64,000 nt of DNA. Origin: Candidatus Woesearchaeota archaeon. GTDB taxonomy: Archaea > Nanobdellota > Nanobdellia > SCGC-AAA011-G17 > CAYFGV01. Location: positions 32,543 to 96,542 of the forward strand of contig CAYVLZ010000004.1 in assembly GCA_964452525.1 (NCBI GenBank), given 5' to 3'. Shown in pieces: positions 41,731 to 64,000 of this stretch (positions within the stretch are counted from its first letter, which is position 1; each line of letters starts with the position of its first letter). A program made the translations under genes and the position numbers. Under the pieces are notes generated by a model. It saw nothing but the letters and a program-made list of their open reading frames with translations. It had not been told where the DNA came from and did not search any database.

Positions 41731-41824
41731 GGGCCCGTAGCCTAGCCTGGATAAGGCGTCTGAACAAGAGTTCCGCCAAAGCCTTCTAAGCTGAAGATCG
41801 TGGGTTCAAATCCCATCGGGCCCA
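41731..41824 (+). tRNA. tRNA-Arg(UCU) with 19-nt intron at 28/29 (41761-41779)
   Basis: Removing the intron restores stem TCAGC/GCTGA around CTTCTAA; GGCG/CGCC central helix. Confidence 0.9.
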
Positions 41825-41869: not shown

Positions 41870-41975
41870 GCGTCCGTGGCCAAATCTGGTAAGGCAACCG
41901 ATTCTCTAAGAGAAGTTGAACCTGCAGAACCAGATTAGAAAGCGGTGATTGGGGGTTCAAATCCCCCCGGGCGCT
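41870..41975 (+). tRNA. tRNA-Cys(GCA) with two introns: 30/31 (41901-41920) and 37/38 (41928-41940)
   Basis: Spliced form has stem ACCGC/GCGGT, loop CTGCAGA, short variable loop and U73. Confidence 0.85.
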
Positions 41976-61433: not shown

Positions 61434-62542
61434 TTATAAATATTTTAGATATCTATTTATCTCAGTACTAGAAAATTGATCAGGAAACTTTTCTTCTATT
61501 TGTTTTGTTAAATCTATTCTAAACTTATAAGTATTGGCATGCTTCATATAAGCAAAGGTTCCTTGTGCGCTATCGTAGATTTTATCATAAGTGATCCTAT
61601 TCTCTGAATGCAAGAAATAAAACTTTTTTAATCTGTTTTGAATATTCTTTCTATTGAATTTCTTTAATAACTTATAATGATAAAATACCCTAAAACCAAC
61701 AAAGTTAATTGGTTTATTCAATGGGATTATCTTAGATTTATCTGGATGTAGTTTTATCTTCAGCTCTTTTATCAAGAATTGATTGATTTCTTCTTTCCAT
61801 ATCTGTAGTTGTTCTTTAGAGTGATGAAGGATTACAAAATCATCTACATATCTTATATAATATTTAGCCTTCAATTTATGTTTCACAAATTTATCTAATT
61901 CATTTAAGTAGATATTAGCAAAGAACTGGGATGTTAAATTTCCTAGAGGCATTCCTTTTTTATTACTATCTTCATTTAGGCGGTTGTGCAAAATTTTTTT
62001 TACCAACCATATAGTTTTATTGCACTTTATTTTCTTTTTTATGGCTTTTATTAAAATCACATGATTAATTTCCTCAAAATAATGTTTTATATCAGCTTTT
62101 AATACATAACCTTTAACTTGATTATTATTAAACCAACCATTAATTTTGCCATTTCTGCTTACTTTTTTTTAAATTGATCAAACCTTTGTAAGGCAGATAA
62201 GGTTCCTTTACCTTTCCTGTTTGCATAAGAGTCATGGATAAAAGACTTTTCAAGAATAGGTTCTATTGTGTTGCATAATGCATGATGTACAATTCTGTCT
62301 TTGAAATCGGATTTGCTTATTTTCCTTGTTTTAGGATCTCTGATGATAAATGTTTCTAGCGGTTTTGGTTTGTAAGAATGTAATAGTAGTTCTGTTCTTA
62401 GTTTTGAAATATTATCTTCTAAATCCCTTTCAAATTCTTTTACATAATTTTTCTTTGTTTTTCCTTTTCTTGCTTTTTTATAAGCTAAATACAGATTTTC
62501 CTCTGAGCATATTCTAAGATATAGATAATTATAAGTTTTCAT
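61434..62542 (-). CDS. DGR reverse transcriptase, split by a -1 frameshift at 62162-62170
   Basis: KDRIVHHAL and HDSYANRKGKG; -1 frame continues VSRNG..GYVLKADIKHYF, GMPLGNLTSQ, YIRYVDDF. Confidence 0.93.
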
Positions 62543-62565
62543 AGGAATTCCTGGAAAAGGATAGG

Positions 62566-62652
62566 CTATTCGACCATTCGAGTTAGAGTTATCCAAGTTG
62601 TTCCAGTTGGAGTTGAGATTCAAGTTCCTGTTGAGGTTCAGCCTAGAAAGGC
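62566..62652 (-). ncRNA. DGR template repeat (TR)
   Basis: 87 nt, 28 adenines, 11 AAY codons, immediately upstream of the RT ATG. Confidence 0.95.
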
Positions 62653-62804
62653 TTTTTCGTAGCTTGTTAATTGAAAGTAAATCACCACCACTTCATCTTT
62701 CTCATAAAGATACTAAATGTTGTAGTTGAATTTTATTATTAACAAACTTGTAGCCTAGCCTTTTGGGCCAGGATAAAAAATAAAGAGATAATAGTTTTTA
62801 TACT

Positions 62805-63599
62805 TTACTGCTCTTTTTTAGGCGCAGTGGCTTCGCCACTTAAAACAACTACCCGACCATCCGAGTCAGAGTTACCCAAGTCGTTCCAGCCGGAGCCGAG
62901 ATCCAAGCCCCTGCCGAGGTCCAGCCTAGAAAGGCCAGAATCTCTTGTATAGAAAGTTCTTGAACCTTTGTTCTTATCTAGATTTGTTGGCAAACCCATT
63001 TCATCAACGTTATTGAATCTGTAACCATTCCATTTATTATTTAATCTATCGTCATGATGTACTGTAAAATTATCACTAGGAACAACTAATAAACCATAAC
63101 CTTCTTTTGATTCATCTAATTTTAAATCAAAACCGTATATTAAAGCTGGTTCTCTTTCTAATCTTGATAAATCCACACCTTCTTGTTCTGCTAAGAATCT
63201 AGCTAAAGGATCATTTTTTGAATTATAAGAATCTGTAGTGCCTCTTAGAACTAAAGCTTGAGAATCAATATAATATTTTCCTCTTACCATTTCAAGAACT
63301 TCTGGATTGCTTAAATCAGCTGGCAAGGGAGTTCTAGGATTGCCTTGAACATTTCCCTGTCTTAATAATTGATTTATTAAAACAGCATCAAAGAAATTTG
63401 ATCCAGTAACAACGCCATCTTGCAATTGTAATCTTAAATTAGGATTTCCATTATAAGTAGAATCTCTTCCTTGTTGGTATGCGTCATAAATTGATTGTCC
63501 AAACCTTCCATTTAAAAAAGAGGGAGATTTAACTAAATTATCTGGAACATTTTCTGTAACTACAAAATCTGATAAATCTCTTGATATTTTAATAGCCAT
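62805..63599 (-). CDS. DGR target protein 1 (probable C-type-lectin-like fold)
   Basis: C-terminal VR ending GRVV; the fold is inferred from known DGR targets. Confidence 0.9.
   Translation of the reverse strand: MAIKISRDLSDFVVTENVPDNLVKSPSFLNGRFGQSIYDAYQQGRDSTYNGNPNLRLQLQDGVVTGSNFFDAVLINQLLRQGNVQGNPRTPLPADLSNPEVLEMVRGKYYIDSQALVLRGTTDSYNSKNDPLARFLAEQEGVDLSRLEREPALIYGFDLKLDESKEGYGLLVVPSDNFTVHHDDRLNNKWNGYRFNNVDEMGLPTNLDKNKGSRTFYTRDSGLSRLDLGRGLDLGSGWNDLGNSDSDGRVVVLSGEATAPKKEQ
62826..62840 (-). other. DGR homing hairpin AGTGGC-GAA-GCCACT
   Basis: 6-bp stem with GAA triloop 8 nt downstream of VR1. Confidence 0.8.
62849..62935 (-). repeat. Variable repeat VR1
   Basis: 16 mismatches to TR, all A-to-G. 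Confidence 0.96.
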
Positions 63600-63601
63600 T
63601 T

Positions 63602-64000
63602 TTATTTATCTCCTAGCATTATATCTCTTGCAGCTTTTAATGCTTTTTGTTTTTTCGAGTTTAATTCTTCAAATTCTGTATTATACATTAATTCAATTTC
63701 GTGTTCTAAATTGTCACCAGCGGTTGCGCTGCGAACAGCAACTACCCGACCACTCGAGTTAGAGCCATCCAAGTCGTCCCAGCCGGAGTAGAGATCCAAG
63801 CCCCCGTTGAGGTCCAGCCTAGAAAGGCCAGAATCTCTTGTATAGAAAGTTCTTGAACCATTAGTGTCAAATATAGGCAATCCATTTTCATCAGTATCAG
63901 AAAATCTTTTGCCATTATTTCTATTATCTAATTTCACCGAGTAAATTAATTCGGCATCTTCTTTTAACTTAAATGATAAGCCATGCGGGCTTTCTTGATC
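63602..64000 (-). CDS. DGR target protein 2 (5' end beyond window)
   Basis: Frame is open to 64000; paralog of target 1 (RTFYTRDSGLSRL). Confidence 0.9.
   Translation of the reverse strand, partial: DQESPHGLSFKLKEDAELIYSVKLDNRNNGKRFSDTDENGLPIFDTNGSRTFYTRDSGLSRLDLNGGLDLYSGWDDLDGSNSSGRVVAVRSATAGDNLEHEIELMYNTEFEELNSKKQKALKAARDIMLGDK
63742..63828 (-). repeat. Variable repeat VR2
   Basis: 15 mismatches to TR: 14 A-to-G and 1 A-to-T. Confidence 0.96.

What the first reader, a model, noticed from the sequence alone, without database searches (positions are those of the whole stretch)
61434..64000. Multi-target diversity-generating retroelement in a DPANN-type archaeon
Seen: order target2, target1, TR, RT on the minus strand. 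One TR matches two VRs with all 31 mismatches at TR adenines, and VR1 has a GAA-triloop hairpin. Target 1 has no signal peptide. No avd gene lies between target and TR or after RT. Known: this is the signature of mutagenic retrohoming. Inference: two paralogous, probably cytoplasmic binding proteins are being diversified; more targets or avd may lie beyond the window.
Basis: partly seen in the sequence, partly recalled or inferred. Interest (0 to 1): 0.88.

Follow-up and report, generated by a model that had tools for sequence, protein, structure and literature searches.

The report
Archaeal DGR with frameshifted reverse transcriptase

Summary
On the minus strand lie target 2, target 1, TR and RT. 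One 87-nt TR matches two VRs with 16 and 15 mismatches, all 31 at TR adenines. No other copy, no Avd and no second RT were found in the 755-kb genome, which is 92.6% complete.

An orthologous cassette in genome G211 differs at five non-adenine TR positions. Both VRs in each genome follow their own TR, so retrohoming occurred after the two diverged.

- **Frameshift.** The RT gene is split by a one-base deletion in an A8 run. Contigs of two runs show the same A8.
- **RT-16 RNA.** Rfam family RT-16 abuts the TR's 5' end. Among 60 relatives it occurs in 27 of 29 genomes with this RT and in 0 of 31 without. Its first 23 nt pair with the stretch just after the TR.
- **Target fold.** The targets belong to a large family with no Pfam match that models as a C-type-lectin fold.

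DPANN DGRs, several targets and Avd-less cassettes are all in print. This is a new member of a known kind, and it is probably switched off or leaky in this genome.

The parts
63602..64000 (-). Target gene 2, 3' part. The full gene is 301 aa and runs to window-equivalent 64507 (L001:2645-3550). It has a roughly 40-aa tail after the VR.
   Evidence: ORF list. 40% identical to target 1. Matches the target profile at E 3.1e-86.
63742..63828 (-). VR2. Its last 11 nt (63742-63752, TGGTCGGGTAG) are the IMH-like end.
   Evidence: 15 mismatches to the TR, all at TR adenines. The same end sequence occurs in VRs of relatives, against TGGTCGAATAG in TRs.
63718..63731 (-). Hairpin after VR2 (CAGCG-CAAC-CGCTG).
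   Evidence: Sequence and DNA fold. Not significant on its own (z -1.09).
62805..63599 (-). Target gene 1, 264 aa. C-type-lectin-like fold, no Pfam family, no cysteine, no hydrophobic leader.
62849..62935 (-). VR1. Its last 11 nt (62849-62859) are the IMH-like end.
   Evidence: 16 mismatches to the TR, all A>G at TR adenines.
62826..62840 (-). GAA-triloop hairpin after VR1 (AGTGGC-GAA-GCCACT). It encodes the conserved residues SGEAT.
   Evidence: The same GGC-GAA-GCC core follows VRs in relatives, and SGEAT is conserved in the family alignment.
62654..62772 (-). RT-16 RNA (Rfam RF03019). It fills the spacer between target 1 and the TR.
   Evidence: 89.4 bits against a gathering score of 50, E 9e-13, full model 1-158. 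Found in 18 of 20 relatives' RT loci. Co-occurs with the RT across 60 relatives.
62566..62652 (-). Template repeat (TR), 87 nt with 28 adenines, 26 of them in codon positions 1-2 of the VR frame. Its last 11 nt (TGGTCGAATAG) are IMH*-like.
62550..62568 (-). Post-TR element (UAGCCUAUCCUUUUCCAGG), complementary to RT-16 nt 1-23. It ends 7 nt before the RT start codon.
   Evidence: RNAduplex -24.6 kcal/mol, 18 bp. Pairing within a locus is stronger than pairing between loci in 17 loci.
62162..62542 (-). RT gene, N-terminal part (127 codons). Frame 0 ends at TAA 62159-62161.
   Evidence: Matches 8ub7_A residues 7-117, E 1.5e-17. Aligns to the N-terminal third of full-length homologues.
62163..62170 (-). 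A8 run holding the one-base deletion. With G62162 it reads A_AAA_AAG, directly followed by the frame-0 stop.
   Evidence: Sequence. The orthologue reads TTT AAA AGA AAA GTA. 7 relatives are in frame at this site. The X2 contig spanning 62015-62236 shows no difference.
61434..62162 (-). RT gene, C-terminal part in the -1 frame (242 codons plus stop). It carries GNLTSQ and YVDD.
   Evidence: RVT_1 E 1.2e-19. Matches 8ub7_A residues 133-293, E 3.7e-22. 74% identical to 365-378-aa homologues.

Best explanation
This is a chromosomal diversity-generating retroelement of the accessory-gene-less type (target2-target1-[RT-16 RNA]-TR-RT) in a DPANN-type archaeon.

Inferred mechanism, by analogy with the Bordetella phage DGR: a transcript holding RT-16, the TR and the start of the RT gene folds so that the first 23 nt of RT-16 pair with the 19 nt just after the TR, closing the TR into a loop. 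The RT copies the TR into cDNA and misreads adenines. The cDNA then replaces the last ~87 nt before the C-terminal tails of two paralogous C-type-lectin-fold proteins. It is guided there by the IMH-like VR end (TGGTCGGGTAG) and a GC-rich hairpin a few bases further on.

Shown here:
- the repeats and their adenine-only differences;
- transfer of TR changes into both VRs since the split from an orthologous cassette;
- the DGR-type RT;
- the RT-16 RNA and its locus-specific pairing;
- the target fold.

In this genome the RT gene has lost one base in an A-rich stretch, which leaves an A8 run and a stop codon. The element was active in the recent past but is now most likely off, or at most leaky through slippage on the A run.
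For: **Repeats.** Three copies of 87 nt. All 31 of 31 mismatches lie at TR adenines, and there are 0 mismatches at the 59 non-A positions of either VR. 26 of 28 TR adenines sit in codon positions 1-2, and the TR reads as a run of AAC codons in the VR frame.

**Transfer.** The own TR and the G211 TR differ at 6 positions. At all 5 non-A positions both VRs of each genome carry their own TR's base. The G211 VRs have 15 and 17 mismatches, all at A.

**RT.**
- Both halves match 8ub7_A best (E 1.5e-17 and 3.7e-22), collinearly. The next best are 9.5e-5 (5hhj_A) and 1.1e-15 (LtrA).
- GNLTSQ and YVDD are present.
- It is the only RVT_1 match in the genome.

**IMH and hairpin** (14 sites).
- 9 of 11 VR-type sites end in TGGTCGGGTAG (2 end -GGTGG, 1 -GGATAG). 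All 3 TR sites end in TGGTCGAATAG.
- By my reading of that output, 9 of 11 VR ends are followed by a GC-rich stem of 5 bp or more with a GAA or GCA loop. One has a 4-nt loop and one has none. 0 of 3 TR ends have such a stem.

**RT-16.**
- 89.4 bits here.
- Present in 18 of 20 relatives' RT loci; the two misses are cut by contig ends.
- In 13 of 13 loci where both were located, its 3' end lies within 0-4 nt of the TR start or overlaps it.
- Among 60 relatives, 27 have it, and all 27 are among the 29 with the RT. 0 of 31 RT-less genomes and 0 of 14 control genomes have it.

**Closing duplex.**
- The own duplex is -24.6 kcal/mol.
- Mean within-locus energy is -21.4 against -16.5 between loci; 0 of 5000 permutations reach it.
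- The within-locus pair ranks 1-3 of 17 in 12 of 17 loci.
- A Watson-Crick run of 5 or more occurs in 11 of 17 loci.

**Targets.** The model has pLDDT 95.1 and pTM 0.90. Of the top 50 solved chains, I recognise 46 by their titles as C-type lectin domains or DGR variable proteins (TaqVP Z 7.0, TvpA 5.6, AvpA 5.2).

**Frameshift.**
- Sequence.
- Homologues read FKRKVSRNG without a break.
- The orthologue has one more base at the site.
- 7 of 7 relatives found at this site are in frame.
- The X2 contig spans the run with no difference.
Against: - No reads were available, only Logan contigs at about 4x from one study, which may be the assembly's own source. So the A8 run is not independently proven, and VR polymorphism could not be tested.
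- The hairpins are not significant when folded alone (z -0.7 and -1.1).
- The fold match is moderate (best Z 7.0, rmsd 5.5 A). Foldseek gave nothing at E<=0.001.
- 5 of 17 loci show no better upstream-downstream pairing than cross-locus controls. The RT-16 5' arm also has a partner inside RT-16 (Rfam's P1 helix), so the long-range helix is an alternative, not a proven fold.
- Related loci are kin, so the permutation figures overstate independence.
- Priming, the cDNA and retrohoming are all inferred from the Bordetella system, which needs Avd: per PMC6182149 (passages read), its RT alone is inactive.
Confidence: 0.72

Rival explanations
1. The DGR is currently on. Either the A8 run is an assembly or sequencing error for A9, or the break is bypassed. 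Bypass could be by -1 ribosomal frameshifting on A_AAA_AAG next to the stop, by RNA polymerase slippage adding one A, or by reversible A8/A9 slippage in the population acting as an on/off switch for hypermutation.
For: - The break sits exactly in a homopolymer. One extra A would restore FKKKVSRNG, the same length as the homologues.
- The 0-frame heptamer A_AAA_AAG followed by a stop is a classic slippery arrangement (recalled from E. coli dnaX; no call).
- Both halves are otherwise intact and 72-74% identical to full-length homologues.
- There are no non-A mismatches between the TR and either VR.
- Sequencing depth was only about 4x.
Against: - Contigs of two runs agree with A8.
- No stable structure lies downstream of the site (z -0.62).
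- 7 of 7 relatives found at this site are in frame there. Broken RTs in relatives (G047, G059) break at other places, so the shift is not a conserved feature.
- Efficient frameshifting at this site in archaea is not shown.
Confidence: 0.25
2. It is not a DGR. The three repeats are ordinary paralogous sequence kept alike by recombination, and the RT belongs to a group II intron, a retron or a defence RT.
For: - NCBIfam's nearest model is the group II intron RT/maturase, well below its cut-off (52.6 and 113.3 bits against 300).
- Drt3a scores 76 bits against a cut-off of 200.
Against: - All 31 of 31 differences are at TR adenines in codon positions 1-2.
- The TR lies outside any target gene and next to the RT.
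- No group II intron RNA family reached Rfam's gathering score in the window.
- Pfam found only RVT_1, with no maturase domain.
- The best solved relative of both halves is 8ub7_A, with retron RTs far weaker.
Confidence: 0.02

Closest known systems
Bordetella phage BPP-1 DGR (mtd-avd-TR-Sp-brt)
   Same: - One TR with adenine-only differences to a VR at the 3' end of a C-type-lectin-fold gene.
- IMH versus IMH* ends, and a GC-rich hairpin after the VR.
- An RT whose best solved match here is 8ub7_A. Its identity as bRT is recalled; the entry is titled only 'Reverse transcriptase'.
- Pairing between RNA upstream and downstream of the TR, like the 'cPRT Stop duplex' of bioRxiv 10.1101/2023.10.23.563531 (abstract and sections 10-11 read).
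   Different: - No Avd.
- The structured RNA (RT-16, 119 nt) lies upstream of the TR. In BPP-1 the RT-10/Sp RNA lies between TR and RT. Here only 23 nt separate the TR from the RT start.
- Two targets.
- Chromosomal, among housekeeping genes.
- The RT gene is frameshifted.
Accessory-less DGRs, 'Architecture A1' (TR-RT) of Wu et al. 2018, PMC5758913
   Same: Core TR-RT with no accessory gene. That paper counts 75 of 372 DGRs of this type, found no avd elsewhere in those genomes, and proposes Avd-independent homing (passages read).
   Different: The same paper says the TR-(avd)-RT layout makes up 90% of its CPR/DPANN set. In the order studied here, PF05635 passed its cut-off in only 4 of 60 relatives, while 29 of 60 have this RT.
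Archaeal DGR variable protein AvpA (PDB 5IOO) and TaqVP (5VF4), TvpA (2Y3C)
   Same: C-type-lectin fold with the VR near the C-terminus. VIA-align Z is 5.2, 7.0 and 5.6 over 142, 172 and 133 aligned residues.
   Different: - No detectable sequence similarity: the best E of the family profile against all PDB chains is 0.69.
- No Pfam or NCBIfam family.
- No cysteines.
Rfam RF03019 RT-16 RNA (Weinberg et al. 2017, PMC5737381)
   Same: Full-length match above the gathering score. That paper describes RT-1 to RT-19 as RNAs near RT genes and guesses that some serve DGRs (section read through 'find').
   Different: Its main text gives RT-16 no role. Here it is placed precisely, abutting the TR's 5' end of an archaeal DGR lineage. 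The paper's supplements, which may say more, were closed.

Membership tests
Diversity-generating retroelement | TR/VR repeat pair whose differences fall at TR adenines | tested here: met
   31 of 31 mismatches at TR A in two VRs. 32 of 32 in the orthologous cassette.
Diversity-generating retroelement | RT of the DGR clade next to the TR | tested here: met
   Both halves match 8ub7_A best (E 1.5e-17 and 3.7e-22), ahead of intron and retron RTs. GNLTSQ is present. No tree was built.
Diversity-generating retroelement | Intact RT reading frame | tested here: not met
   One-base deletion in the A8 run with stop TAA at 62159-62161. The same A8 appears in contigs of runs X1 and X2.
Diversity-generating retroelement | VR in the 3' part of a target ORF, with TR adenines in codon positions 1-2 | tested here: met
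   26 of 28 adenines are in positions 1-2. 14 variable codons.
Diversity-generating retroelement | IMH at the VR end differing from IMH* at the TR end, plus a downstream hairpin | tested here: met
   TGGTCGGGTAG in VRs against TGGTCGAATAG in TRs, in three genomes. Hairpins follow 10 of 11 VR ends and 0 of 3 TR ends (read by eye). Folding energies alone are not significant.
Diversity-generating retroelement | Directional TR-to-VR information transfer | tested here: met
   5 of 5 non-A TR differences between two orthologous cassettes are mirrored in both VRs of each genome.
Diversity-generating retroelement | Ongoing VR diversification within a population | tested here: inconclusive
   Only contigs at about 4x were available. 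No variants were listed, and contigs drop rare variants.
Avd-dependent DGRs (Bordetella type) | avd (PF05635) gene in the cassette or genome | tested here: not met
   0 matches at E<=10 in a 92.6% complete genome. tblastn with 4 relatives' Avd gave a best E of 0.9. No small ORF lies in the cassette.
C-type-lectin-fold DGR variable proteins | CLec fold carrying the VR | tested here: met
   Model pLDDT 95.1. 46 of the top 50 chains are recognisable by title as CLec or DGR variable proteins, best Z 7.0. Z is moderate and Foldseek found nothing at E<=0.001.
Rfam RF03019 (RT-16 RNA) | Covariance-model score at or above the gathering score | tested here: met
   89.4 bits against 50, model positions 1-158.
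Group II intron | Intron RNA domains around the RT ORF and a maturase domain | tested here: not met
   No group II RNA family reached the gathering score in the window. Pfam gave only RVT_1. TIGR04416 scored far below its cut-off.
Retron | msr/msd RNA with inverted repeats next to a retron-clade RT | not tested
   Only indirect evidence: retron RTs are much weaker PDB matches (Ec83 RT, E 4.7e-5).

The most novel reading that the evidence does not exclude
In this archaeal DGR lineage the RT-16 RNA, placed upstream of the TR and clamped to the post-TR segment by an ~18-bp helix, does the jobs that Avd and the downstream spacer RNA do in the Bordetella element: holding the RT, setting the start and stop of cDNA synthesis, and perhaps priming. 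That would make it a DGR whose only protein is the RT. In addition, the A8/A9 tract in the RT gene could act as a heritable on/off switch for hypermutation.
Probability: 0.2. Interest if true: 0.7.

Novelty: new member of a known kind. Interest (0 to 1): 0.4.

Why it matters
DGRs in DPANN archaea are known, so the element itself adds little. Three points are useful:

1. **RT-16 gets a place.** It is an orphan Rfam family. Here it has a precise position (directly 5' of the TR) and a testable role. It is tied to a DGR-type RT in 27 of 29 related genomes that have that RT, and those genomes mostly lack a detectable Avd. This offers a compact system (RT plus roughly 250 nt of RNA) for asking how Avd-independent mutagenic reverse transcription works.

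2. **A large unannotated target family.** The targets define a family of ~260-aa C-type-lectin-fold proteins with no Pfam match: 824 representative clusters at E<=0.001. They have no leader peptide. This bears on what DPANN cells diversify and where.

3. **A caution for surveys.** A perfect TR/VR signature does not show present activity. Here the RT frame is broken.

Tried and rejected
**First structure model.** I did not read this as a new fold. A 147-sequence alignment gave a confident model.

**Foldseek on the good model.** It listed nothing at E<=0.001. The fold call therefore rests on VIA-align.

**Related loci.** The search for related loci in genome contigs found no relative of target 1. 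The genome search over the order did.

**ESM Atlas.** It returned only unnamed Nanobdellota clusters.

**Sequencing runs.** Three runs of one microbial-mat study were offered, all as contigs. Run X3 holds next to none of the stretch. Gaps in contig cover over VR1 coincide with the 48 nt that VR1 and VR2 share upstream, so I do not read them as polymorphism.

**Programmed frameshift.** No downstream structure was found, and the shift is not conserved in relatives.

**Substitution spectrum.** I did not find the Bordetella spectrum in the passages I read, so no claim of difference is made.

**Literature.**
- The Paul et al. 2017 DPANN/CPR DGR survey is not held, so I could not check whether this RT lineage, target family or Avd-less layout is described there.
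- Roux et al. 2021 was not looked up.
- Searches for 'RT-16'/'RF03019' and for DGR plus frameshift/slippage terms found no paper that gives RT-16 a DGR role or describes a slippery site in a DGR RT. This covers only the held library, and supplements were closed.

Full report
**What is there.** On the minus strand the window holds two adjacent ORFs, then a 152-nt spacer, an 87-nt repeat, and a reverse-transcriptase gene that starts 23 nt after the repeat. The two ORFs are target 2 (63602 to beyond the window end) and target 1 (62805-63599).
- The window is G000:C4:32543-96542, in a genome of 755 kb, 18 contigs and 32% G+C, 92.6% complete.
- Reading on in the contig shows that target 2 is 301 aa. 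Upstream of it lies a divergent AP-endonuclease-2 gene, then Orc1/Cdc6-like, IF5A-like and FtsZ genes.
- Downstream of the RT lie convergent NifU and class-V aminotransferase genes.
- So the cassette is chromosomal and complete, in an archaeon. The nearest RT and target homologues carry the source names Woesearchaeota, Nanoarchaeota and Pacearchaeota. The ESM Atlas neighbours are Nanobdellota clusters.

**The repeats.** The repeat finder gives three 87-nt copies.
- TR (62566-62652) against VR1 (62849-62935) has 16 mismatches. Against VR2 (63742-63828) it has 15.
- All 31 lie at TR adenines (28 A in 87 nt): 30 are A>G and one is A>T. There is no mismatch at any of the 59 other positions.
- 26 of 28 adenines are in codon positions 1-2. 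In the VR frame the TR reads LSRLNLNRNLNLNSNWNNLDNSNSNGRI.
- A degenerate TR pattern finds only these three places in the genome.
- The last two A>G differences (GAA to GGG) recur in every VR examined, in three genomes, while TRs keep GAA. I read them as the fixed IMH/IMH* difference rather than mutagenesis. That leaves 27 mutagenic differences.

**Proof of transfer.** Genome G211 (same order, another family) carries the same cassette, with two targets of 287 and 258 aa, a TR and an intact RT, in a different neighbourhood.
- Its TR differs from the TR here at six positions.
- At all five non-adenine positions, both VRs of each genome carry the base of their own TR. At the sixth (G here, A there) the G211 VRs show T and A.
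- This concerted change is what TR-to-VR retrohoming predicts. It dates activity to after the two lineages split.

**The RT.** Pfam finds RVT_1 in the C-terminal part (E 1.2e-19).
- Against all PDB chains, both parts match the 328-aa chain 8ub7_A best and collinearly: residues 7-117 at E 1.5e-17, and 133-293 at E 3.7e-22. Group II intron RTs (1.1e-15 for LtrA) and a retron RT (4.7e-5) score lower.
- The entry is titled only 'Reverse transcriptase'. That it is the Bordetella phage bRT is my recollection.
- GNLTSQ and YVDD are present.
- It is the only RVT_1 match in the genome.

**The frameshift.** The gene is in two frames.
- Frame 0 runs from ATG 62542 to TAA 62161-62159.
- The rest is read in the -1 frame from GTA 62162-62160, whose first base G62162 is also the last base of the frame-0 AAG codon.
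- Full-length homologues (365-378 aa, 72-74% identical) read ...RFDxFKRKVSRNGK... straight through the junction.
- The G211 orthologue has TTT AAA AGA AAA GTA where this genome has TTT AAA AAA AAG TAA, one base fewer.
- Seven relatives found at this site are all in frame.
- Contigs of two public runs from one microbial-mat study agree with A8. The X2 contig spans the run with more than 31 nt on each side and no difference. However, depth is about 4x and the runs may be the assembly's source.
- The site reads A_AAA_AAG plus a stop, but nothing stable lies downstream (z -0.62).
- Broken RTs in relatives break elsewhere.
- I therefore treat it as a real, recent, non-programmed deletion. Low-level rescue by slippage on the A run, or reversion to A9, stays possible.

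**No Avd.**
- PF05635 finds nothing at E<=10 in this genome.
- Four Avd proteins from relatives find nothing better than E 0.9 by tblastn.
- There is no small ORF in the cassette.
- Among 60 relatives of the order, 29 have this RT but only 4 have PF05635 above its cut-off. Only one of those (G021:C28) has it within ~2 kb of an RT.
- Accessory-less DGRs are known: 75 of 372 in PMC5758913, which also proposes Avd-independent homing.

**RT-16 RNA.** The spacer between target 1 and the TR is a full-length match to Rfam RF03019, RT-16 (62654-62772, 89.4 bits, gathering score 50).
- It is present in 18 of 20 relatives' RT loci. The two misses are cut by contig ends.
- In 13 of 13 loci where a TR was also located, its 3' end lies 0-4 nt from the TR start or overlaps it.
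- Among the 60 relatives it occurs in 27, all among the 29 with the RT. It occurs in none of the 31 without, and in none of 14 control genomes.
- The paper that defined the RT motifs assigns RT-10 to the Bordetella TR-RT spacer and only guesses that others serve DGRs (PMC5737381). My two searches found no later assignment for RT-16.

**Closing duplex.** The first 23 nt of RT-16 are complementary to the 19 nt that begin with the last three bases of the TR and end 7 nt before the RT start codon. This gives 18 bp at -24.6 kcal/mol.
- Across 17 loci, within-locus pairing is stronger than between-locus pairing: mean -21.4 against -16.5 kcal/mol, with 0 of 5000 permutations reaching it. The within-locus pair ranks in the top 3 of 17 in 12 loci. 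Five loci show nothing special.
- The arms covary, for example CCTGG/CCAGG, TCTTGGT/ACCAAGA and TCAGCAT/ATGCTGA.
- This resembles the upstream-downstream 'cPRT Stop duplex' reported for 207 of 278 Avd-bearing DGRs (bioRxiv 10.1101/2023.10.23.563531, sections 10-11).
- It competes with Rfam's P1 hairpin, so it is an alternative fold, not a shown one.

**Targets.**
- Target 1 and target 2 are 40% identical over 242 aa.
- They have no Pfam or NCBIfam family and no PDB sequence match.
- A word-based search found 13 relatives. A profile search found 824 representative clusters at E<=0.001, of which 199 are at E<=1e-30. 40 of 239 other genomes of the order have a match.
- With 147 sequences AlphaFold gives pLDDT 95.1. 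The best solved matches are C-type-lectin folds led by the DGR variable protein TaqVP (Z 7.0, 172 aligned). TvpA and the nanoarchaeal AvpA are also listed.
- There is no hydrophobic leader or membrane segment, and there are no cysteines.
- The conserved SGEAT after the VR is encoded by the GGC-GAA-GCC hairpin. That protein motif may therefore be a DNA-level constraint.

**Verdict.** This is a genuine, recently active, Avd-less, two-target DGR of a lineage common in this archaeal order, and it is already a known kind of element. Its RT gene is frameshifted in this genome. The useful additions are the placement of RT-16 as the TR-flanking RNA of this lineage, the upstream-downstream clamp, and an unannotated C-type-lectin-fold target family.

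Noticed in passing
window 62849-62935 and 63742-63828; L051; 17 relatives' loci: The substitutions at TR adenines are skewed. Here 30 of 31 are A>G. In G211, 25 are A>G and 7 A>T. In 18 TR-VR pairs of relatives there are 149 A>G, 57 A>T and only 4 A>C, plus 4 non-A changes. This could be selection on the protein or a bias of this RT lineage. Two A>G per VR are the fixed IMH difference.
   Followed up: partly
L051 (G211:C29:86500-94500) versus window 61434-64000: The orthologous two-target cassette (RT 74% and target 69% identical) sits between different genes in G211, of 494 and 532 aa. Here it lies between NifU and an AP endonuclease. So the whole cassette has moved, or the neighbourhoods have been rearranged.
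   Followed up: partly
L052 (G190:C39) and L053 (G066:C51): Close target homologues (E 6e-122 and 1e-116 to the profile) have no RT among the ORFs of 80 aa or more listed in the stretch fetched. They may be remote or orphaned targets. L052 ends at a contig end.
   Followed up: no
G059 (C5:142658-143348, C6:138182-138861) and G047 (C10:37863-38542): Several DGR-type RT genes in relatives are split or carry internal stops, at sites different from the one here. Decay of these RTs seems common in the order.
   Followed up: no
window 41731-41824 and 41870-41975 (+): Two neighbouring tRNA matches span 94 and 106 nt, longer than the 71-position model. This suggests intron-bearing tRNA genes, as is usual in archaea.
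   Followed up: no
window 62654-62772 (-): The RT-16 match contains AGUA...GAA in an internal loop. A 2026 survey lists an RT-16 loop as sarcin-ricin-like, alongside RT-10, RT-14 and RT-17 to RT-19 (PMC13085918, passages read).
   Followed up: no
G021:C28:22879-26608: One relative has RT-16, a DGR-type RT and a PF05635 Avd gene within about 4 kb on one contig. RT-16 and Avd are therefore not strictly exclusive.
   Followed up: no
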